Assembly: GCF_000189295.2 (NCBI RefSeq)
Contig: NC_016803.1
Location: 2,040,001-2,072,000 of the forward strand
Length of the DNA stretch: 32,000 nucleotides
Origin: Pseudodesulfovibrio mercurii
Lineage (GTDB): Bacteria > Desulfobacterota > Desulfovibrionia > Desulfovibrionales > Desulfovibrionaceae
Reading direction: 5' to 3'
The notes beneath the pieces are model-generated. The model ran no database searches and was not told the DNA's origin. It saw nothing but the letters and a program-made list of their open reading frames with translations. Every line of letters starts with the position of its first letter. Positions within the stretch are counted from its first letter, which is position 1. Shown here piece after piece: positions 162-28,545 of this stretch. The position numbers were made by a program, and so were the translations under genes.

Positions 162-272
162 GTGTCCACCGCCCGGACCGCCTTCCCGGCGCTGGCCCGG
201 TCCGTCCCATACCTGTTCAGGCATTGTGCGGAAACGCGCAAGGTCGATCCGTGTTGCGCCAATGCCACGGGC

Positions 273-287
273 ATGGCATAGTGCCAT
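273..287. promoter_or_regulatory. 15-bp palindrome ATGGCAtagTGCCAT (candidate operator) upstream of the FmdE-fusion gene
   Basis: Perfect 6-bp inverted arms with a 3-nt spacer. A further TGCCA half-site lies at 263-267. About 75 nt upstream of the ATG at 362. Confidence 0.3.
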
Positions 288-361
288 TCCTTTTTCCGGC
301 GGCAAATACGGGAAGGGGTCGGCGCGCCGCGCCGGGCACTCAATCGAACTGCGAGGCAAGC

Positions 362-1987
362 ATGAACATCGGACAGTACACCTTTGAGGAATTCAAGCAA
401 AAGGCCAAGGAATTTCACGGCTATCCCGCTCCGGGCCTGCTCATCGGCGGGTACATGGTGGAGGCGGCCAAGGCCCGGCTGCCCGAGGGCACCCTGTTCG
501 AGGCCATGGTCGAGTCCGGCAAGTGCCTGCCCGACGCGGTCCAGCTCCTGACCCTGTGCTCCACGGGCAACAACTGGATGAAGGTCAAACTGCTCGGGCG
601 CTACGCCGTGTCCCTGTACGACAAGTTCACGGGCAAGGGGTTCCGGGTGGCCATCGACCAGGAGAAACTCAAGCTCTGGCCCGAGATCCACGACTGGTTC
701 ATGAAGGAGAAGCCGAAGGCCGAGCAGGACACGGAACGGCTCTTCCGCGAGATCGAGGAGGCCGGGGACACCATCTGCTCCATCCGGCCCGTGACCATCG
801 CCAAGAAATACCTCGGCCACGGCCACATGACCACCATCGACGTCTGCCCGGTCTGCGGCGAGGCCTACCCCAGTTCGGACGGCTCCATCTGCCGGGGCTG
901 CCAGGGCGAGGCCCCCTATGAATCCATGGAGGGGGCCGTCTGCGCCGACGACGCCCCGGACCTCAAGGTCATGCCCGTGGAACAGGCCGTGGGCCGGAAG
1001 GCGGTCCACGACATGACCGGCATCCGGCCCGGCGAGTCCAAGGGACCCATCACCAAGGCGGGCGACATTCTCGGCATCGGCGACGTCTGCCGGTTGCAGC
1101 GCATCGGCAAGTTCAACGTCTACGACGCCGAGGCCATCCCCGGCGACGAGTGGGTCCACGAGAACGACGCGGTCAAGGCGTTCGCGAAACGCATGGCCGG
1201 GCCGGGCATCACCTATGACGCCGATCCCGAGGAGGGCAAGATCAACTTCTTCGCCGACCGCGACGGCATGCTGTCCATCGACCTGGACGCCCTCTCCCGG
1301 TTCAACCTCTCCCCGGACGTCATGCTGGCCACCCGGCACGACGGCTCGCTCATGCCCAAGGGCAAGGGCGTGGCCGGGACCAGGGCCATCCCCCTGTACA
1401 TCTCCCGCGACCGGTTCTCGCGCGCCCTGACCGCGCTGGGCGAGGGCCCGGTCCTGTCCGTGCTGCCGCTCAAGGCGGCCAAGGTCGGCATCCTGGTCAC
1501 CGGCACCGAGGTCTTCCAGGGGCTCATCGAGGACAAGTTCATCCCGATCATCTCGTCCAAGGTCATCAAGCTCGGCTGCACCGTGCACATGACCGACATC
1601 GTGCCGGACGAGCGCGAGGCCATCACCAACGCGGCCAAGGCCATGCTCAACGGCGAGTGCGATCTGATCGTGACCACGGCGGGCATGTCCGTGGACCCGG
1701 ACGACGTGACCCGCGCGGCCCTGGTGGACGCCGGGCTGCACGCCGACCACTACGGCGTGCCCATGCTGCCCGGCACCATGACCCTGGTGGGCAAGCTCCG
1801 CAAGGCGGACATCATCGGGGTCCCGGCCTGCGCCCTGTTCTACAAGACCACGGCCTTCGACGTGGTCCTGCCCCGCGTGCTCGCCGGGCAGGAGCTGCGC
1901 CGCAAGGATCTGGCGCGGCTGGGCGAGGGCGGGTTCTGCATGAACTGCAAGACCTGCTCCTTCCCCAAGTGCCCCTTCGGCAAGTAG
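362..1987 (+). CDS. FmdE-domain protein fused to a MoeA/MoaB-like molybdenum-cofactor-binding (MoCF_BD) domain, with a C-terminal Cys cluster
   Basis: In-frame ATG at 362 (MNIGQYTFEEF...) inside the 224..1987 track ORF. The N-terminus has FmdE-like HGYPAPGLLIGG and a zinc ribbon CPVCGEAYPSSDGSICRGC. The C-terminal half has ILVTGTEV...DLIVTTAGMSVDPDD, typical of MoCF-binding domains. The tail is CMNCKTCSFPKCPFGK. Confidence 0.8.
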   Translation: MNIGQYTFEEFKQKAKEFHGYPAPGLLIGGYMVEAAKARLPEGTLFEAMVESGKCLPDAVQLLTLCSTGNNWMKVKLLGRYAVSLYDKFTGKGFRVAIDQEKLKLWPEIHDWFMKEKPKAEQDTERLFREIEEAGDTICSIRPVTIAKKYLGHGHMTTIDVCPVCGEAYPSSDGSICRGCQGEAPYESMEGAVCADDAPDLKVMPVEQAVGRKAVHDMTGIRPGESKGPITKAGDILGIGDVCRLQRIGKFNVYDAEAIPGDEWVHENDAVKAFAKRMAGPGITYDADPEEGKINFFADRDGMLSIDLDALSRFNLSPDVMLATRHDGSLMPKGKGVAGTRAIPLYISRDRFSRALTALGEGPVLSVLPLKAAKVGILVTGTEVFQGLIEDKFIPIISSKVIKLGCTVHMTDIVPDEREAITNAAKAMLNGECDLIVTTAGMSVDPDDVTRAALVDAGLHADHYGVPMLPGTMTLVGKLRKADIIGVPACALFYKTTAFDVVLPRVLAGQELRRKDLARLGEGGFCMNCKTCSFPKCPFGK

Positions 1988-4433: not shown

Positions 4434-6059
4434 CTAGCGCTTGATGGAGATGAGCGTGTTCAGCATGGAATCCGCGGTGGTGATGACCTTGGTGTTGGCC
4501 TGGTAGCCGCGCTGGGTCAGGATCATGTTGGAGAACTCCGTGCTCATGTCCACATTGCTCTCCTCCAGGGAGTTCTGGTTGATGATCCCGCGCCCCCGGT
4601 CCCCGGCCGTGCCGACCATGGCCGTGCCCGAGGCCTCGGTGGCCACGAAGTTGGTCCCGCCGTCGCGCCTGAGCCCCCACGGACTGTTGAACTTGTAGAC
4701 CGCCACCTGGTACAGCTCCTCGGTCTGTCCGTTGGTGAAGTGGCCGCTCAGGATGCCCTCCTCGTCCACGCTGACGTAGTTGAGGTAACCCCAGGTATAG
4801 CCGTCCTGGATGTTGTACAGGGTGGCGGACGGCAGGTCGTAGCTGGTGGTCACGCGGGCGTCGCGGTTGGTGGCGTCCAGGCCGGGGAGCGCGTTCACAT
4901 TGGTGCCCACGGCCGCCGCGTTGCTGGCCCCGCCCGTGGTCCAGGAGGCGGTGTCGGAATTGATCCCGAAATCGTAGGCGATGGTCGAGACCCCGCCCGT
5001 GGCCGCGCCGTTGCTGCCGAAGAGGTAGTTGAACTGCGGCAACCCGTCGTCGCTGAAGGTGGCCGGGACCCAGGAGGACAGGCTGGTGCCGCCCGCCGCC
5101 GAGGTGCCCGCCGGGTCCAGGGTGAAGGCGGACTGGTCGATGAGCGCACCCTGGGCGTTGAAGGTCAGCACCCCCAACCCCGCCAGACCGGCCGCCGAAG
5201 TGCCGAAGGCCGCGGACGCGTCCGAGTCCTCGGGCATGGCGATGAGATATTCCCAGTAGGAGTAGCCGGGCACGGCGTTGGACAGGTTGGTGGTCTCCAC
5301 CGGGTCGAAATAGATGTTCATCTCGTAGCTGTTGCCGTCCTCGTCGTACACGTCGATGGCCGTGGAATACTGCGGCAGGCCGTCGCCGAAGGGCGAGGCC
5401 GCGTTGCTCTGGTTGGCGGTGTACGCCTCCAGCATGGCGAAGAACGGGTTGTCCTCGTTGGAGATCTGGCTGGCGGCCGAATGGTCGAGCCGGGTGACGA
5501 CCTCCACCGAGGTGGTGGCGAAGGGCTGGGAGCGGACCACGCGGGCGGTCTGGCCGTCCACGTCGACGTCCTCGTAGGGCAGCTGCACGTCGGACACGGC
5601 GGTGGCCCACTCGCCGGTCTCCCGGTCGTAGGCGAAGCCCTGGAGCCGGTACCCCTCCGAGTTGACCAGGTAGGCCTCGTTGTCGAAGCGGAAATCCCCG
5701 GCCCTGGTGTAGTGCGACGCCCCCCGGATGGTCCCCGAGGGGTCGTTGACCCCGAAGAACCCCTGGCCCGAGATGGCCAGGTCCGTGGCCTCGGTGGTCT
5801 CGGACAGGGCGCCCTCGGTGAAGATGCCCCGGATGGCGGACACGGCCACGCCCATGCCCATCTGGTTGATGCGCACGTCGCCGTTGTCGTACAGGGCGCC
5901 GCCCGTGGCCACCTGCTGGCTGATGAGGTCGCCGAACAGGATGTCCGAGCGCTTGTAGCCGATGGTGTTGACGTTGGCCAGGTTGTTGGCCAGGACCGAC
6001 ATGCCCTGGCTGTGGGCGATCACGCCGGTGGCGCCCACGTACATGCTTCCGAAACTCAT
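4434..6059 (-). CDS. flgE: Flagellar hook protein FlgE
   Basis: ATG at 6059 preceded by GGAGGAAG. The N-terminus has ...LANNLANVNTIGYK and the C-terminus LEESNVDMSTEFSNMILTQRGYQANTKVITTADSMLNTLISIKR, the conserved flagellar rod/hook terminal motifs. The 864-aa track ORF is an upstream read-through of this frame. Confidence 0.9.
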   Translation of the reverse strand: MSFGSMYVGATGVIAHSQGMSVLANNLANVNTIGYKRSDILFGDLISQQVATGGALYDNGDVRINQMGMGVAVSAIRGIFTEGALSETTEATDLAISGQGFFGVNDPSGTIRGASHYTRAGDFRFDNEAYLVNSEGYRLQGFAYDRETGEWATAVSDVQLPYEDVDVDGQTARVVRSQPFATTSVEVVTRLDHSAASQISNEDNPFFAMLEAYTANQSNAASPFGDGLPQYSTAIDVYDEDGNSYEMNIYFDPVETTNLSNAVPGYSYWEYLIAMPEDSDASAAFGTSAAGLAGLGVLTFNAQGALIDQSAFTLDPAGTSAAGGTSLSSWVPATFSDDGLPQFNYLFGSNGAATGGVSTIAYDFGINSDTASWTTGGASNAAAVGTNVNALPGLDATNRDARVTTSYDLPSATLYNIQDGYTWGYLNYVSVDEEGILSGHFTNGQTEELYQVAVYKFNSPWGLRRDGGTNFVATEASGTAMVGTAGDRGRGIINQNSLEESNVDMSTEFSNMILTQRGYQANTKVITTADSMLNTLISIKR

Positions 6060-6154
6060 ACTTCCTCCGATCCGGCGCGGGCCGGATGCGCGGGAACCGC
6101 CGGGATACCCATTCCCGGCAAGAAATTCCCAAGTCCTTCTCGGAAACATTAAGA

Positions 6155-6169
6155 GCAAGGGACGTGCCA
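6155..6169 (-). promoter_or_regulatory. Sigma54 (-24/-12) promoter for flgE
   Basis: The minus strand reads TGGCAC-gtccc-TTGC, an exact TGGCAC-N5-TTGC. It lies about 96 nt upstream of the flgE ATG. Confidence 0.65.
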
Positions 6170-6380
6170 CAGAGAAAACTTTATCTTTCCGAAGGGAAAG
6201 CCCGGCCGGGGCGCGGCACATCCTGCCGGACGCCCGGTCCCCATGCCGCGAGGCCCGGCCGGACGGGACCGGACGGACCGGGGCCGAACATGTTTCCCTT
6301 GCCAGATACCGGCGCCGCGCGTAGTCTTGCGCGACTTTGCGATCAGAGTGACAGCAAACGAAACTAATGGAGATATAGTA

Positions 6381-6956
6381 ATGAAACGGATTCTTCCCCT
6401 GCTCTTCGTCGCCCTCCTGGCCCTGGGACTGAGCGCCTGCAACCAGGAGCCGTCGGCCAAGATCGGCATCGTGGACGAGGCCGCCGCCTTCAAGGACAAC
6501 AAGCTGGCCACCGAGGCCATGGCCCACCTCCAGGAGATGGGCAAGCCCCTCCAGGAAAAGGCCGAGGCCGCGTACAAGGCCATGCAGGCCAACCAGACCG
6601 AAGAGACCGTGGCCGCCTACAAGCTGGCCATGGGTGAACTCCAGAACACCATGACCGCCGAGCAGCAGCGCATCGTCGGCATGGTCGACGCCAAGTTCAA
6701 CGAGGTCCTGGAGACCTACCGCAAGGAAAAGGGGCTGACCGCCATCCTGAGCAAGCAGGCCGTGATCGCCTCCGACGATGCCGTGGACATCACCAAGGAC
6801 ATCGTGGCCGCCATGAACAAGGTCACCATGGACTTCTCCCTGCCCGAGGCCCCCAAGGCCGAGGCTCCGGCCCCGGCGGCCGAACAGGCCGCTCCGGCGG
6901 CTGCGCCCGCCCCGGCTCCGGCAGCGGACCAGGCCCCGGCCAAGGCCGCGGAATAG
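6381..6956 (+). CDS. OmpH/Skp-family periplasmic chaperone-like lipoprotein with a Pro/Ala-rich tail
   Basis: ATG at 6381 with GGAGA upstream. Signal peptide with lipobox LGLSAC. Skp-like IGIVD...coiled coil...DITKDIVAAMNK. The C-terminus is a low-complexity APAPAAEQAAPAAAPAPAPAA tail. Confidence 0.75.
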   Translation: MKRILPLLFVALLALGLSACNQEPSAKIGIVDEAAAFKDNKLATEAMAHLQEMGKPLQEKAEAAYKAMQANQTEETVAAYKLAMGELQNTMTAEQQRIVGMVDAKFNEVLETYRKEKGLTAILSKQAVIASDDAVDITKDIVAAMNKVTMDFSLPEAPKAEAPAPAAEQAAPAAAPAPAPAADQAPAKAAE

Positions 6957-23523: not shown

Positions 23524-23651
23524 GATGCCGCTGCGCGGCGATTGTTGGATGATTTCGCCTCCGCCGGGCAGCACCAGCTCTTGGCGAGTCTTCAAGCCTT
23601 AGAGATGACAGCCGCGATAGGGTTCGCACCCTTGCATCCCGTTTATACGCC
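23524..23651 (+). repeat. Intergenic repeat family R2, copy a (with a ~48-nt internal insertion)
   Basis: Block 1, gatgccgctgcgcggcgattgttggatgatttcgcctccgccgggca (23524-23570), and block 2, agggttcgcacccttgcatcccgtttatacgcc (23619-23651), match 25439-25519 with only a few substitutions. Confidence 0.75.
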
Positions 23652-23711
23652 CTGTCGGGCGCGGAGAGCACGCGCGTTGCGCTGGGGGGAGTTGTCCTCT
23701 ATGCTTTGCAT

Positions 23712-23894
23712 ATGGACGAAACCACCATTCAAGAACTGCGCGAACTGGCCGAACAAAACGGCATCGACCCGGACCAGTTGCTGGCCATCGGCGAAACCGA
23801 CGGGCTGGACCCGGAGCTGCGCCGGGCCGTGGCCGACATCCTCGGCGACGTCACCCTGTTCGGCCAGGCCCTGGACGGCCTGGACCACGACTAG
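23712..23894 (+). CDS. Small acidic hypothetical protein (60 aa)
   Basis: ATG at 23712; the track ORF starts at a TTG two codons earlier. G/C-rich third positions. The stop is 3 nt before the thpR ATG. There is no SD, but a TTGCGC-17-TATGCT box ends 6 nt before the ATG, so the mRNA may be leaderless. Confidence 0.45.
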   Translation: MDETTIQELRELAEQNGIDPDQLLAIGETDGLDPELRRAVADILGDVTLFGQALDGLDHD

Positions 23895-24633: not shown

Positions 24634-25401
24634 TTAAACGTCGATCTCCACGCCGATGGGGCAGTGGTCGGAGCCGAGGACGTCGGGTTCGATCCAGGCG
24701 CGGACGACCTTGTCCTTGAGTTCCTCGGACACGAAGAAGTAGTCGATGCGCCATCCGGCGTTGTTCTTGCGGGCGTTGAAGCGGTAGGACCACCAGGAGT
24801 AGTGGTGCGGGCCGTCCTCGAACAGGCGGAAGGTGTCCACGTAGCCGTGTTCGATGAACTTGTCGATCCAGGCGCGTTCCACGGGCAGGAACCCGGACCG
24901 TTCGCTGTTGGCCTTGGGGTTCTTGAGGTCGATTTCCCGGTGCGCGGTGTTGAAGTCGCCGCCGACCACGATGGGCTTGGTCCGGCGCAACGCCTGGGCG
25001 TGCTCCAGAAAGGTGTCGTAGAAGCCCATCTTGAAATCCAGCCGCTCGTCCGACATCTGGCCGTTGGGAAAATAGATGTTGAACAGGTGGAAGTCCGGGT
25101 ATTCGAGATGCAGCACCCGGCCCTCGTCACGGAACCGGTCGTCGGGCAAGCCCGTGTCCCAGCGGATGGGCTCGGGATTGGCGAAGCAGGCCACCCCGGA
25201 ATAGCCCTTCTTTTTCTTGGACCAGTTCCAGTAGTGGTTGGAAAAGGAATCCGGCTCGCGCTCGTCCAGGGCCAGCTGGTCCGGCTCGACCTTGGTCTCC
25301 TGCAACATGACCACGTCGCCGCCGCAACCGTCCAGCCAGTCGCGGAAATCCTTCTTGAGCACCGCCCGGTACCCGTTGACGTTCCAGGAATAGATGATCA
25401 T
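24634..25401 (-). CDS. xthA: Exodeoxyribonuclease III
   Basis: ATG at 25401 preceded by AGGAGAAAG. MIIYSWNVNG..., VVMLQETK, GGDFNTAH and GSDHCPIGVEI are EEP/ExoIII motifs. The 466-aa track ORF is an upstream read-through. Confidence 0.9.
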   Translation of the reverse strand: MIIYSWNVNGYRAVLKKDFRDWLDGCGGDVVMLQETKVEPDQLALDEREPDSFSNHYWNWSKKKKGYSGVACFANPEPIRWDTGLPDDRFRDEGRVLHLEYPDFHLFNIYFPNGQMSDERLDFKMGFYDTFLEHAQALRRTKPIVVGGDFNTAHREIDLKNPKANSERSGFLPVERAWIDKFIEHGYVDTFRLFEDGPHHYSWWSYRFNARKNNAGWRIDYFFVSEELKDKVVRAWIEPDVLGSDHCPIGVEIDV

Positions 25402-25438
25402 GGGGCTTTCTCCTAGTAAAGAGGGGAAATCGGGAGGG

Positions 25439-25519
25439 GAATGCCGCTGCGCGGCGATGGTCGGATGATTTCGCCTCCGGCGGGCAAGGGTTCGCACCCT
25501 TGCATCCCGTTTGTGCGCC
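25439..25519 (+). repeat. Intergenic repeat family R2, copy b
   Basis: gaatgccgctgcgcggcgatggtcggatgatttcgcctccggcgggca + agggttcgcacccttgcatcccgtttgtgcgcc. Same orientation as copy a. Confidence 0.75.
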
Positions 25520-25557
25520 TGCGGCGCAAGGTGTTGCGCTTCGCGAGGGAGGGGGGT

Positions 25558-25593
25558 GAAAAAACGAAGGGGAACCGGCCGGGCCGATTCCCC
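25558..25593 (-). terminator. Rho-independent terminator after the 29-aa ORF
   Basis: The minus strand reads GGGGAATCGGCCCGGCCGGTTCCCC (10-bp stem) followed by TTCGTTTTTT. Confidence 0.6.
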
Positions 25594-25616
25594 TGATGCC
25601 GCGTGCGCGGCGAAAA

Positions 25617-25706
25617 CTAGTGCTCGTTGGGGGTGCTGATCTTGATCATGACCAGCGCGGCGATGGTCAGACACAGCCCCAGGAAAAACCAGAAATAACC
25701 CATCAT
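25617..25706 (-). CDS. Unlisted 29-aa hydrophobic small protein MMGYFWFFLGLCLTIAALVMIKISTPNEH (CydX/AppX-like N-terminus?)
   Basis: Hand translation of the minus strand. GGAGGA lies 7 nt upstream of the ATG ATG. A single TM helix is predicted. Its own terminator is at 25558-25593. It is below the length cut-off of the supplied ORF track. Confidence 0.5.
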   Translation of the reverse strand: MMGYFWFFLGLCLTIAALVMIKISTPNEH

Positions 25707-25831
25707 GTTCGCATCCTCCACGTATGTAAGCAATTGTTGTCTTGCTCATAGCAGAAACCCGGAGGGAAGGAAAGTACGGCGGCCCGGAGAAATTCCCCGG
25801 ACCGCCTTTCGGTTTCCGTATGGAGCGGCGG

Positions 25832-26419
25832 CTAGGCTTCGATCCGGGTGCCGAGCACCTTGAGGAACTTGGCCATCCACTCGGGATGGGCGGGCCAGGC
25901 CGGGGCGGTGACGATGTTGCCGTCCGCGCAGGCGTTGGAGGCCGTGGCGTTGACCTCGCACCAGGTGGCCCCGGCGCCGTCGATGTCCGGCTTGACCGCC
26001 GGGTAGGCCGTGCAGGTCTTGCCCTTGATGACATCGGCCGCGGTCAGGATCTGCGGGCCATGACAGATGGCCGCGATGGGCTTGCCCGCGTTCGCGAAGT
26101 GCCGCACGCACTTGATCACGTCCGGGTTCAGGCGCAGGTATTCCGGGGCGCGGCCGCCGGGGATGACCAGGGCGTCGTAGTCCTCGGGCTTGATCTCCTC
26201 GAAGGTGGTGGTCACCCCGAAGTTGTGGCCCGGTTTTTCGGAGTAGGTCTGGTGCCCCTCGAAGTCGTGCACGGCCGTGGCCACGAACTCGCCCGCCTTC
26301 TTGCCGGGGCAGACGGTGTGGACGGTGTGGCCGACCATCAGAAGCATCTGAAAGGGAACCATGGCCTCGTAGTCCTCCACGAAGTCGCCGACCAGCATCA
26401 GTATTTTCTTGGCAGCCAT
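25832..26419 (-). CDS. DJ-1/PfpI-family protein (type 1 glutamine amidotransferase-like fold)
   Basis: ATG at 26419 preceded by GGAGGAAG. Nucleophile elbow AAICHGPQIL, plus DALVIPGGRAPE. Confidence 0.9.
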   Translation of the reverse strand: MAAKKILMLVGDFVEDYEAMVPFQMLLMVGHTVHTVCPGKKAGEFVATAVHDFEGHQTYSEKPGHNFGVTTTFEEIKPEDYDALVIPGGRAPEYLRLNPDVIKCVRHFANAGKPIAAICHGPQILTAADVIKGKTCTAYPAVKPDIDGAGATWCEVNATASNACADGNIVTAPAWPAHPEWMAKFLKVLGTRIEA

Positions 26420-26529: not shown

Positions 26530-27699
26530 ATGAACCATTTCGACGCCGTCATCCTCGGAGCCGGGGCCTCGGGCCTGTGGTGCGCCATGACCGCCGGGGC
26601 GCGCGGCCGCACGGTCGCGGTCATCGACCACGGGGCCAAGACCGCCCGCAAGGTGCGCGTGTCCGGCGGCGGCAAGTGCAATTTCACCAACCTCGACGTC
26701 TCGCCCGCCCACTACCTGTGCGCCAACCCCCACTTCGTCAAATCCGCCCTGGCCCGGCTGTCGCCCTGGGACGTGGTCGCCTTTCTGGGCGAGCACGGCA
26801 TCAGCTATGAGGAGCGCGACCACGGCCAGCTCTTCACCCTGGAGGGCGCGGGCAAGGTGGCGGGGGCCCTGGCGGAGCGCTGCGGCCGGACGGGCGTGGC
26901 CCTGCTGACCGGCCGGGAGATCGGCGCGGTCTCGGGCGAAGGGCCGTTCACCGTCGAGATGGGCAACGAGACCGTGACCGGCGACAGCCTGGTCCTGGCC
27001 CTGGGCGGCCCGTCCTGGCCCCAGGTCGGGGCCACGGACCTCGGCTTCCGGCTGGCCCGTCAATTCGGGCTGCAACTCACCCCGACCCGGCCCGGCCTGG
27101 TGCCCCTGGTCTTCCCCAAGAAGCTCCAGCCCCTGTGCGCGGACATGGCGGGCAACGCCCTGCCCGCCGCCGTGGAGGCGGGCTCCATGCGCTTTACCGA
27201 CCCCCTGCTCTTCACCCACCGGGGCATCTCCGGCCCGGCCGTGCTCCAGGCGTCGAGCTACTGGCGGGAGAACCGGCCCGTGGCCATCGACTTCCTGCCC
27301 GACCTGGCGCTCACGGATTTTCTGGCGGACAACCGCTCCTCCAACCAGCAGCTGCGCAACCTGCTCGCCCGCGTCCTGCCCAAGCGGCTGCCGCCCCTGC
27401 TCCTGGCCCCGGCCCTGGCCGAGACCCAGGTCAGCCAGCTGTCCAAGGCGCAGACCGAGGCCGCCTGCGAGGCCATCCACCGCTTCACCGTCACCCCGTC
27501 CGGCACCGAGGGCTACGCCAAGGCCGAGGTCACGGTCGGCGGCGTGGACACGGCCCGCATCTCCTCCAAGACCATGGCGGCCCGCGACGTGCCGGGGTTG
27601 TACGTCATCGGGGAGACCCTGGATGTGACCGGCCATCTGGGCGGCTTCAACCTGCACTGGGCGTTTGCGTCGGGGCAGGCATGCGGGGAAGCGATTTAA
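26530..27699 (+). CDS. BaiN/RdsA (HI0933-like) NAD(P)/FAD-dependent oxidoreductase
   Basis: The N-terminal dinucleotide fold is FDAVILGAGASGLWCA. SGGGKCNFTN, GISGPAVLQ and GETLDVTGHLGGFNLHWAFASG are characteristic of the HI0933 family. Confidence 0.9.
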   Translation: MNHFDAVILGAGASGLWCAMTAGARGRTVAVIDHGAKTARKVRVSGGGKCNFTNLDVSPAHYLCANPHFVKSALARLSPWDVVAFLGEHGISYEERDHGQLFTLEGAGKVAGALAERCGRTGVALLTGREIGAVSGEGPFTVEMGNETVTGDSLVLALGGPSWPQVGATDLGFRLARQFGLQLTPTRPGLVPLVFPKKLQPLCADMAGNALPAAVEAGSMRFTDPLLFTHRGISGPAVLQASSYWRENRPVAIDFLPDLALTDFLADNRSSNQQLRNLLARVLPKRLPPLLLAPALAETQVSQLSKAQTEAACEAIHRFTVTPSGTEGYAKAEVTVGGVDTARISSKTMAARDVPGLYVIGETLDVTGHLGGFNLHWAFASGQACGEAI

Positions 27700-27803
27700 C
27701 AGTGGCCTTCGAACGCACCCCAACACAAATCGGGGAGATACGTAATCTGTGTGCTATGAGGCTGTAAAATTCAGGGATAGCTTTTTATACTTGAATAAGT
27801 CTG

Positions 27804-28406
27804 TCACAGCGCAAGTGAAGTAACGACGCCATAAATAAGCATCATAAATCCACACAGCTGGTGCAAAAGTTCTTCTTCAACTGTTTGAGTAATTTTTACT
27901 TCTAAAGATGTACATGTATTTATTATTTTTTTATTTAATTCATCTTTGACTTTCTTTACTTTTCGATCCATATCTTGACCTTGCTCAAACAATTTCGCAT
28001 CAAGCTCGTTGAGCTTATTGTGGATGAAATCTACCCGTTGCTCTAATGTTGTAAAACTAGGTGTAAATAGTGTGTGCATACTGGCACCAATTGTAACACT
28101 TTCGCTTAACTCAATATTGAATATACGACCAGGATGCCATGGAGCCTTTCTCCACCATTCTAAAAACATTCCACCAAGGCTGACCCCTTTGAAGCTATTA
28201 AGGGTGCCATTGATTGTATAGAAGATAATAGCTGCACCACCAACTTGACCTATGAAGGCTATGAACTTGTGGACTAAAGGACGATTGGGCACTTCAACGT
28301 GAAGCCACAGTACAAAGTGAATAAAGCCAATTATGATTAATGTGGCGAGAAAGCGGAGAGGATAGAGCCAGTCCAACCAAGATTGGAGATTTTTAGTGCA
28401 TGACAT
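27804..28406 (-). CDS. Orphan low-GC membrane/coiled-coil protein (200 aa), no recognisable family
   Basis: ATG at 28406 preceded by AGGAGG with a 5-nt spacer. It is the only long ORF in the low-GC segment. Two N-terminal hydrophobic helices (approx. residues 15-35 and 47-66), a charged helical region (approx. 112-178) and a hydrophobic C-terminal tail (LCGFMMLIYGVVTSLAL). Codon usage is AT-rich, unlike every neighbouring gene. Confidence 0.7.
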   Translation of the reverse strand: MSCTKNLQSWLDWLYPLRFLATLIIIGFIHFVLWLHVEVPNRPLVHKFIAFIGQVGGAAIIFYTINGTLNSFKGVSLGGMFLEWWRKAPWHPGRIFNIELSESVTIGASMHTLFTPSFTTLEQRVDFIHNKLNELDAKLFEQGQDMDRKVKKVKDELNKKIINTCTSLEVKITQTVEEELLHQLCGFMMLIYGVVTSLAL

Positions 28407-28545
28407 AGAGGCCTCCTGCTCATGGGGTGTAACTAATGTTTAGGCCCATGGAAACCCAAAAACTAAGAAGGAACCGCAGGACGACTCGACTCCTGTATTT
28501 TCCCTCGCCACATTTCCCGCGTTCAAAAGAACAACCAACCACAAG

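What the first reader, a model, noticed from the sequence alone, without database searches (positions are those of the whole stretch)
25558..25715. Unannotated 29-aa membrane peptide with its own SD and terminator; N-terminus resembles CydX/AppX
The minus strand 25706-25617 encodes MMGYFWFFLGLCLTIAALVMIKISTPNEH. It is preceded by GGAGGA at ideal spacing and followed by a strong terminator. The Y-F-x-(W/F)-x-x-L-G start and the 28-30 aa length recall the cytochrome bd accessory peptides. From memory, E. coli CydX begins MWYFAWILG and AppX begins MWYLLWFVG. No cydAB genes are in this window, since the peptide lies downstream of a DJ-1/PfpI gene. It could therefore be an orphan bd-oxidase subunit, another small membrane regulator, or a small toxin-like peptide.
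Basis: partly seen in the sequence, partly recalled or inferred. Interest (0 to 1): 0.5.

Follow-up and report, generated by a model that had tools for sequence, protein, structure and literature searches.

The report
Conserved small membrane protein, possible bd-oxidase partner
The 29-residue reading frame is a real, conserved gene for a one-helix membrane peptide of sulfate-reducing Desulfovibrionaceae; it is not a CydX family member, but in some relatives it sits right next to the cytochrome bd oxidase genes and may be an undescribed small partner of that enzyme.

Summary
The ORF at 25706-25617 (-) is real. It has GGAGGA 7 nt upstream and a strong terminator, and it is the only small ORF in the window with both a strong ribosome-binding site and a hydrophobic helix. 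The window is from a Pseudodesulfovibrio. The ORF belongs to a family of more than 130 database peptides of 27-31 aa, all labelled hypothetical. Within subfamilies dN/dS is 0.06-0.3, and a ribosome-binding site is present in every lineage.

It is not a CydX/AppX (PF08173) member. No family member matches the HMM, while CydX and AppX controls score 54 and 45 bits. None of 114 members carries the CydX motif YxxWxxGx15[ED]. The N-terminal resemblance is close to chance (empirical p about 0.04-0.07).

Gene neighbourhood still revives the bd idea. In three of eight lineages the peptide gene lies beside cydAB, once 143 nt downstream of cydB, the classic cydX position. No other small membrane ORF follows cydB in the two loci inspected.

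Against this, the constant partner is the downstream exonuclease III gene (xthA), with an HI0933-like flavoprotein gene upstream in six of eight lineages.

Best reading, about 45%: a new, non-CydX accessory peptide of the short-type cytochrome bd, separated from cydAB in Pseudodesulfovibrio. This is unproven.

The parts
25617..25706 (-). Small-protein gene, 29 codons plus TAG: MMGYFWFFLGLCLTIAALVMIKISTPNEH. It has one hydrophobic helix (about residues 3-21) and a polar tail. F7, F8, G10 and K22 are invariant across the aligned family members.
   Evidence: ORF. Homologues. Invariant columns. dN/dS 0.06-0.3 within subfamilies. Hydropathy.
25714..25719 (-). Shine-Dalgarno GGAGGA, 7 nt upstream of the ATG.
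   Evidence: Read. A purine-rich SD 5-9 nt before the start is present in all 14 distinct orthologous loci.
25745..25773 (-). Promoter-like element (inferred): TTTCCT, 17 nt, then TGcTATGAG, an extended -10-like box. The equivalent pattern CTTCCC or TTTGCA, about 17 nt, then TGnTA recurs upstream of the peptide gene in distant lineages.
   Evidence: Upstream regions compared by eye. The simple sigma-70 scan did not call it. Inference only.
25778..25806 (-). G+C-rich hairpin just after the DJ-1/PfpI stop codon. It separates the peptide gene from the upstream gene.
   Evidence: Sequence. Conserved in L001, L002 and L081, absent in L003.
25558..25611 (-). Small hairpin (25611-25598), then an intrinsic terminator (stem-loop 25594-25568 and T-run 25567-25558).
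   Evidence: Conserved in L001, L002, L003 and L081.
24634..25401 (-). Exodeoxyribonuclease III-type gene (xthA, Exo_endo_phos). It is the downstream same-strand neighbour of the peptide gene in all eight lineages, with an inserted gene between them in one sub-lineage (L097).
   Evidence: Pfam. Synteny.
25832..26419 (-). DJ-1/PfpI gene. It is the upstream neighbour only in Pseudodesulfovibrio-like loci.
   Evidence: Absent from this position in the other seven context classes.
26530..27699 (+). HI0933-like FAD protein gene, divergent from the peptide gene. It is the upstream neighbour in 6 of 8 lineages.
   Evidence: Pfam. Synteny.

Best explanation
The ORF is a translated core gene of Desulfovibrionaceae. 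It encodes a 27-31-residue single-pass membrane peptide with the pattern M-x(1-2)-[YF]-F-[WF]-F-F-x-G-L ... I-K-x-[ST]-[ST]. It has its own promoter-like element and ribosome-binding site. A hairpin or terminator separates it from the exonuclease III gene that follows. These points are shown or directly read. Inferred: the peptide is an accessory third subunit or assembly factor of the short-Q-loop cytochrome bd quinol oxidase (CydAB). It would lie against the transmembrane helices of CydA, as CydX, AppX and CydS do, and stabilise the haem-containing subunit. It is not a detectable homologue of CydX. The ancestral order would be cydA-cydB-peptide-xthA, which is kept in one lineage. In Pseudodesulfovibrio cydAB has moved elsewhere, leaving an orphan subunit gene, as ynhF (CydH) is for E. 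coli bd-I.
For: Real gene. It is conserved in frame across 14 distinct orthologous DNA sequences. Window versus L003 shows 7 synonymous and 2 non-synonymous differences (dN/dS 0.06), and other within-subfamily pairs give 0.12-0.3. An SD is present in every lineage. More than 130 family members of 27-31 aa exist.

Link to cytochrome bd. In L089, a 3.6-Mb contig, the order is cydA, cydB, 143 nt, peptide, xthA, all on one strand. In L100-L102 and L082 the order is cydA-cydB, HI0933-like (-), peptide. In L083-86 and L095 cydB and cydA are divergent, about 1.3 kb upstream. CydA in these three lineages is only 67-69% identical, so they are well separated. No other small membrane ORF follows cydB in L089 or L100.

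The peptide has the size and build of known bd small subunits: an aromatic-rich start of the helix with a conserved Gly, and a weak N-terminal profile match to CydX.

Literature. Small subunits can be non-homologous yet occupy the same site, as CydS and CydX do. One subunit, CydH/ynhF, is encoded away from the operon (PMC8951039). Other small proteins replace CydX in operons that lack it (CydY, CydZ), and orphan copies exist (PMC4325964, PMC5322542). Pseudodesulfovibrio cashew has cydAB (10.1101/2020.12.08.417204).
Against: No physical or expression evidence exists. In 5 of 8 lineages, including the window's, no cydAB lies nearby: none within 6-10 kb in four, and a 2.1-kb contig is uninformative in the fifth. 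The three cydAB-adjacent lineages may reflect one ancestral adjacency rather than three independent events. Even in L089 a terminator hairpin follows cydB, so the peptide gene is not in the cydAB transcript. The constant partner is xthA, often only 62-110 nt downstream. That fits a peptide-xthA transcription unit. HI0933-like is a more frequent neighbour than cydAB. Sequence similarity to CydX is not above chance, and there is no match to any solved bd subunit.
Confidence: 0.45

Rival explanations
1. It is a conserved small membrane protein with a partner other than cytochrome bd, such as another respiratory or transport complex or a sensor kinase. It would be expressed from one promoter with xthA as part of an oxygen or oxidative-stress response. 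The nearness of cydAB in some lineages would be inherited gene order without functional meaning.
For: The peptide-xthA adjacency holds in all eight lineages, and HI0933-like is upstream in six, against cydAB in three. A terminator lies between cydB and the peptide gene in L089 and after cydB in L100. There is no significant similarity to any bd subunit. Neighbours include oxidative-stress-type genes: DJ-1, xthA, HSP20 and a hemerythrin gene.
Against: No alternative membrane partner is conserved in the neighbourhood; xthA, HI0933-like and DJ-1 are soluble enzymes. The position directly after cydB in L089 is exactly where bd small subunits are normally encoded. The chance that an unrelated gene sits there is low.
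Confidence: 0.33
2. It is a truly homologous but highly diverged CydX (PF08173) family member. This is a sub-case of the bd hypothesis.
For: hhalign aligns family columns 2-14 with CydX columns 1-13 (46% identity, probability 24.6%). [YF]xx[WF]xxG is present in 106 of 114 members.
Against: No HMM hits, while controls hit strongly. YxxWxxG and YxxWxxGx15[ED] occur in 0 of 114 members. Shuffle controls give p of 0.04-0.07. CydX tracks the long-Q-loop CydA of Alpha-, Beta- and Gammaproteobacteria (PMC4325964), whereas the CydA proteins here are 433-439 aa, the short type (PMC5322542).
Confidence: 0.08
3. It is a leader peptide or upstream ORF whose translation, together with the following hairpins, controls read-through into xthA.
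For: The hairpin or terminator lies between the ORF and xthA. The spacer is only 62-110 nt in many lineages, and in L003 the SD of xthA follows the T-run directly.
Against: The amino-acid sequence is under purifying selection and forms a typical membrane helix. No alternative anti-terminator pairing was seen. In L097 an opposite-strand gene separates the ORF from xthA, yet the ORF is retained.
Confidence: 0.06
4. It is a type I toxin-like or other membrane-damaging peptide.
For: It is small, hydrophobic and a stand-alone gene with its own terminator.
Against: It is a single copy at a fixed, vertically inherited chromosomal position across several genera, with strong purifying selection and no mobile-element context. 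No known RNA family lies in or opposite the locus.
Confidence: 0.03
5. It is a chance ORF that is not translated.
For: There is no direct expression evidence.
Against: It is conserved in frame at low dN/dS over divergent lineages. An SD is present everywhere. It is the only small ORF in 64 kb of two-strand sequence that combines an SD and a membrane helix.
Confidence: 0.02

Closest known systems
CydX / AppX (CbdX), Pfam PF08173 YbgT_YccB, third subunit of E. coli cytochrome bd-I and bd-II
   Same: A single-helix peptide of about 30 aa whose helix starts with aromatic residues followed by Gly. It has a strong SD. In one relative (L089) the gene lies directly downstream of cydB.
   Different: No HMM match. 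The defining motif YxxWxxGx15[ED] is absent. The family has its own invariant pattern G-x11-K, in 114 of 114 members against 0 of 111 CydX/AppX sequences. It is linked to short-Q-loop CydA, it is not co-transcribed with cydAB, and in the window it is far from any cydAB.
CydS of Geobacillus thermodenitrificans cytochrome bd (PDB 5DOQ)
   Same: A small single-helix third subunit of a short-Q-loop bd oxidase. That is the enzyme type reported for most deltaproteobacteria (PMC5322542).
   Different: No sequence similarity was detected in the PDB searches. The binding mode is untested.
CydH / CydY (YnhF) of E. coli bd-I
   Same: A 29-aa single-helix subunit encoded by an orphan gene away from the cyd operon (PMC8951039). 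It is the precedent for an orphan bd subunit.
   Different: No sequence similarity. It binds a different cleft of CydA and is specific to long-Q-loop enzymes.
CydZ (DUF2474, PF10617) and the 'CydY' small ORFs of Allen et al. 2014
   Same: These alternative small membrane proteins are found downstream of cydB where CydX is missing. They have a conserved aromatic residue at the start of the helix.
   Different: No Pfam match to PF10617. The lineage and sequence are different.

Membership tests
CydX/AppX (PF08173 YbgT_YccB) | Scores above the Pfam gathering threshold (26.2 bits) | tested here: not met
   No hits at E <= 10 for the window peptide, its 38-aa extension and 8 other diverse members. 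Controls: CydX 53.9 bits, AppX 45.4 bits. NCBIfam also has no hit for the cyd small subunits.
CydX/AppX (PF08173 YbgT_YccB) | Motif YxxWxxGx15[E/D], present in 97% of CydX homologues (PMC4325964) | tested here: not met
   0 of 114 family members against 102 of 111 CydX/AppX sequences. Only the relaxed [YF]xx[WF]xxG is shared, in 106 of 114.
CydX/AppX (PF08173 YbgT_YccB) | Detectable profile-profile homology | tested here: inconclusive
   hhalign probability 24.6%, P = 8e-4, over 13 N-terminal columns. Of 1000 column-shuffled profiles, 42-74 score as high. HMM cross-scores are at most 6.5 bits.
CydX/AppX (PF08173 YbgT_YccB) | Encoded immediately downstream of cydB in the cydAB operon | tested here: not met
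   The window has no cydAB. In the relative L089 the position is right, but a terminator follows cydB. In two other lineages cydAB is 1.3-1.5 kb away with another gene between.
CydX/AppX (PF08173 YbgT_YccB) | Associated with long-Q-loop CydA of Alpha-, Beta- and Gammaproteobacteria (PMC4325964) | tested here: not met
   The neighbouring CydA proteins are 433-439 aa, the short type described for deltaproteobacteria (PMC5322542).
Cytochrome bd small subunit in the functional sense (any family) | Co-purifies with, or is seen bound to, CydA/CydB and is needed for activity or stability | not testable with these tools
   Needs biochemistry, cryo-EM or multimer structure prediction. Only single-chain prediction was available.
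Cytochrome bd small subunit in the functional sense (any family) | Genomic association with cydAB beyond chance | tested here: inconclusive
   cydAB is adjacent in 3 of 8 lineages, in three different local arrangements. These may descend from a single ancestral adjacency. A phyletic co-occurrence test was not possible.
CydS / CydH / other solved bd subunits | Sequence similarity to a chain in a solved bd structure | tested here: not met
   Profile and single-sequence searches of the PDB at E <= 10 returned no bd subunit. The control CydX query finds CydX and AppX.
Type I toxin | Patchy, often multi-copy distribution with an overlapping antisense RNA | tested here: not met
   It is a single copy at a conserved syntenic position with low dN/dS. 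No Rfam RNA was found. Antisense transcription itself is not testable here.

The most novel reading that the evidence does not exclude
The peptide founds a previously undescribed family of third subunits of the short-Q-loop cytochrome bd oxidase of sulfate-reducing Desulfovibrionaceae. It is unrelated in sequence to CydX, CydS, CydH or CydZ. It is transcribed from its own conserved promoter together with the DNA-repair gene xthA, and in Pseudodesulfovibrio it is physically uncoupled from cydAB. That would make an oxygen-defence module in which an oxidase subunit and an oxidative-lesion repair enzyme are co-expressed.
Probability: 0.4. Interest if true: 0.6.

Novelty: new variant of a known kind. 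Interest (0 to 1): 0.5.

Why it matters
Cytochrome bd is the main membrane oxygen reductase that lets 'strict' anaerobes such as Desulfovibrio survive oxygen. Its small subunits decide assembly, stability and oxygen access in the enzymes studied so far. No small subunit has been described for the enzyme of sulfate reducers. A conserved 29-aa candidate gives a concrete target for purification, cryo-EM and genetics. It would also add a case of an oxidase subunit gene that has left its operon. Even if the bd link fails, this is a strongly conserved, family-wide small membrane protein. It has no Pfam or NCBIfam model and is worth annotating.

Tried and rejected

2. The look-up of encoding contigs refuses proteins under 30 aa. 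Contexts therefore came only from members called with longer N-termini or of 30 aa or more.

3. The single metagenome scan was wasted. The back-translated pattern was too degenerate: 600 stretches, only 2 confirmed.

4. BLASTP of the peptide against CydX gave no alignment at E <= 100.

5. PDB searches gave only a trivial SxPNE match to designed armadillo repeats and a FliR helix, and nothing with the broad profile.

6. One family member hit NuoJ in NCBIfam at E = 0.045. I judged this to be noise.

7. Rfam returned only sub-threshold chance matches.

8. The DJ-1 neighbour was considered as a functional partner and rejected. In the other Desulfovibrionaceae DJ-1 loci (for example L007, L026, L046, L073-76, L079) no peptide gene is nearby. 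In seven of eight peptide contexts no DJ-1 is present.

9. A topology comparison with CydX was dropped, because the literature read here is inconsistent on CydX orientation.

Full report
OBSERVATION. The minus strand carries ATG (25706) to TAG (25617), encoding MMGYFWFFLGLCLTIAALVMIKISTPNEH. GGAGGA sits 7 nt upstream at 25719-25714. After the stop there is a small hairpin, then a 12-pair stem-loop (8 G-C pairs) at 25594-25568 followed by TTCGTTTTTT. The tail folds at -31.9 kcal/mol, z = -4.4. Of 237 ATG ORFs of 20-50 aa on both strands of the window, 7 have a strong SD. Only this ORF also has a membrane-helix-like hydropathy window.

ORGANISM AND SETTING. The adjacent DJ-1/PfpI protein is 94-95% identical to those of Desulfovibrio caledoniensis and Pseudodesulfovibrio karagichevae, so the window is from a Pseudodesulfovibrio. 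In the orientation of the peptide gene the local order is: HI0933-like flavoprotein (divergent), DJ-1/PfpI, peptide, exonuclease III (xthA), then LigT, a small acidic ORF and malic enzyme on the other strand. No cydA or cydB is among the 20 main ORFs of the 32-kb window that were scanned.

IS IT A GENE? tblastn found the ORF intact at the same place in three related genomes. One is L003, where DJ-1 is only 82% identical but 27 of the 28 aligned peptide residues are identical. Database searches gave 14 close relatives and distant relatives. A profile search then gave 138 proteins. All are 27-31 aa once trimmed to the conserved Met. All are labelled 'hypothetical' or unnamed, and none has a Pfam domain. 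F7, F8, G10 and K22 (window numbering) are invariant in a 19-sequence alignment of diverse members. G-x11-K is present in 114 of 114 members. Within subfamilies, where synonymous sites are not saturated, dN/dS is 0.06-0.3; window versus L003 shows 7 synonymous and 2 non-synonymous changes. A purine-rich SD lies 5-9 nt before the start in every lineage. A promoter-like pattern recurs upstream in distant lineages: CTTCCC or TTTGCA, about 17 nt, then TGnTA (inference by eye). The ORF is therefore a real, selected, small membrane-protein gene.

IS IT CydX? Every membership test failed or was inconclusive.
- Pfam and NCBIfam give no cyd-related match at E <= 10 for the window peptide or for 8 other diverse members. 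CydX and AppX score 53.9 and 45.4 bits on PF08173.
- PDB searches with the peptide and with two family profiles find no bd subunit. CydX as query finds AppX.
- The motif that defines 97% of CydX homologues, YxxWxxGx15[E/D] (PMC4325964), occurs in 0 of 114 members against 102 of 111 CydX/AppX sequences.
- A CydX HMM run without filters scores the family at 6.5 bits or less, barely above shuffles.
- hhalign aligns family columns 2-14 with CydX columns 1-13 (probability 24.6%, P = 8e-4). When the helix columns of either alignment are shuffled, 42-74 of 1000 trials reach that score.

The N-terminal resemblance is real to the eye but close to what two aromatic-rich helix starts give by chance. CydX is also tied to long-Q-loop CydA of Alpha-, Beta- and Gammaproteobacteria (PMC4325964). 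The CydA proteins found next to relatives of this peptide are 433-439 aa, the short type reported for most deltaproteobacteria (PMC5322542).

GENE NEIGHBOURHOODS. I obtained contexts for eight sequence lineages of the family.
1. Pseudodesulfovibrio (window, L001-3, L081, L096): HI0933(-), DJ-1, peptide, xthA.
2. L091-94: HI0933(-), peptide, xthA.
3. L109: the same order.
4. The 'MD[YF]FFFFAGL' group (L087/88, L090, L097-99, L104-106): MatE(-), HI0933(-), peptide, xthA, with an opposite-strand gene inserted before xthA in L097.
5. L107/108: HI0933(-), peptide, xthA, on short contigs.
6. L100-103 and L082: HSP20(-), cydA, cydB, HI0933(-), peptide, xthA.
7. L083-86 and L095: cydB(-), cydA(-), SBP_bac_3, peptide, xthA.
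8. L089, a 3.6-Mb contig: HSP20(-), PFK, cydA, cydB, peptide, xthA.

xthA therefore follows the peptide gene in all eight lineages. The spacer is often 62-110 nt and holds only a hairpin, which suggests a shared transcript with an internal attenuating terminator. HI0933-like is upstream in six lineages and DJ-1 in one. cydAB is adjacent in three. In L089 the peptide gene starts 143 nt after cydB on the same strand, the canonical position of cydX. However, a terminator hairpin and the conserved promoter-like element lie between them. No other small membrane ORF follows cydB in L089 or L100.

INTERPRETATION. A gene unrelated to cytochrome bd would rarely sit directly after cydB in a relative, and rarely stay within 1.5 kb of cydAB through an inversion and two different insertions. 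Known bd enzymes carry single-helix subunits that are mutually undetectable by sequence (CydX versus CydS). One of them, CydH/YnhF of 29 aa, is encoded away from the operon (PMC8951039). Alternative small proteins replace CydX in other clades (PMC4325964, PMC5322542). At least one Pseudodesulfovibrio has cydAB (10.1101/2020.12.08.417204).

I therefore favour, at about 45%, a new non-CydX accessory peptide of the short-type cytochrome bd. It would bind CydA helices and stabilise the enzyme, and its gene would have become separated from cydAB in Pseudodesulfovibrio.

Shown: the gene, its conservation, its signals and the synteny. Inferred: the promoter, co-transcription with xthA and the whole bd role.

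The main rival, at about 33%, is a membrane peptide with another partner that is co-expressed with xthA, with cydAB proximity being inherited gene order. That rival fits the stricter xthA and HI0933 linkage and the terminator after cydB. Leader-peptide, toxin and chance-ORF readings are unlikely, given peptide-level purifying selection and fixed single-copy synteny.

NOVELTY AND SCORE. The kind of element, a small single-helix partner of a respiratory oxidase, is well known. This family has no model in Pfam or NCBIfam, no name and no literature that I could find. No small subunit is described for the bd oxidase of sulfate reducers. I rate it a new variant of a known kind, with interest 0.5. 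The functional claim rests on synteny only.

Noticed in passing
window 25441-25503 (-) and 23525-23564 (-); also L001 and L002 between the peptide gene and xthA: A repeated G+C-rich palindromic (REP-like) intergenic element, ...GCAAGGGTGCGAACCCTTGC...CCGGAGGCGAAATCATCCGACCATCGCCGCGCAGCGGCAT. It occurs twice in the window (the second copy has 3 mismatches in 40 nt) and is conserved in two relatives. It is absent from L003 and L081, where the peptide-xthA spacer is only about 75 nt.
   Followed up: partly
window 27600-28500, ORF 27804-28406 (-): A low-GC island (36-49% against about 66% for the window) holds a 200-aa ORF with a hydrophobic N-terminal part and no Pfam or PADLOC match. In the related contig L081 the flanking HI0933-like and Ham1 genes are only about 70 nt apart, so this looks like a recent insertion.
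   Followed up: partly
window 23706-23894 (+): A small acidic ORF (about 60 aa, MDETTIQELRELAEQNGIDPDQLL...) lies between malic enzyme and LigT. It is conserved at 61-72% identity in L001, L081 and L096 and was not scanned against Pfam. ORFs of 59-66 aa at the same position in L083 and L089 show no detectable similarity.
   Followed up: partly
window 25402-25616 and the equivalent spacers in L003, L081, L100, L107: In many relatives the xthA start codon follows the peptide gene's hairpin or terminator by only a few nucleotides. xthA may therefore be expressed by read-through from the peptide promoter, as a bicistronic unit with an internal attenuator.
   Followed up: partly
upstream of the peptide gene: window 25773-25745 and, for example, L087, L089, L097, L100, L109: A conserved promoter-like pattern (CTTCCC or TTTGCA, about 17 nt, then TGnTA) is kept across lineages in which the rest of the intergenic sequence has diverged.
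   Followed up: partly
L083-L085, about 4800-6820: An EcoRV-type restriction-modification cassette (D12 methyltransferase, HTH regulator, Endonuc-EcoRV) is inserted between xthA and the malic-enzyme block in one lineage.
   Followed up: no
window 224-1987 (+): A 587-aa ORF combines FmdE, its treble-clef zinc finger and a MoCF_biosynth (molybdopterin-binding) domain in one protein.
   Followed up: no
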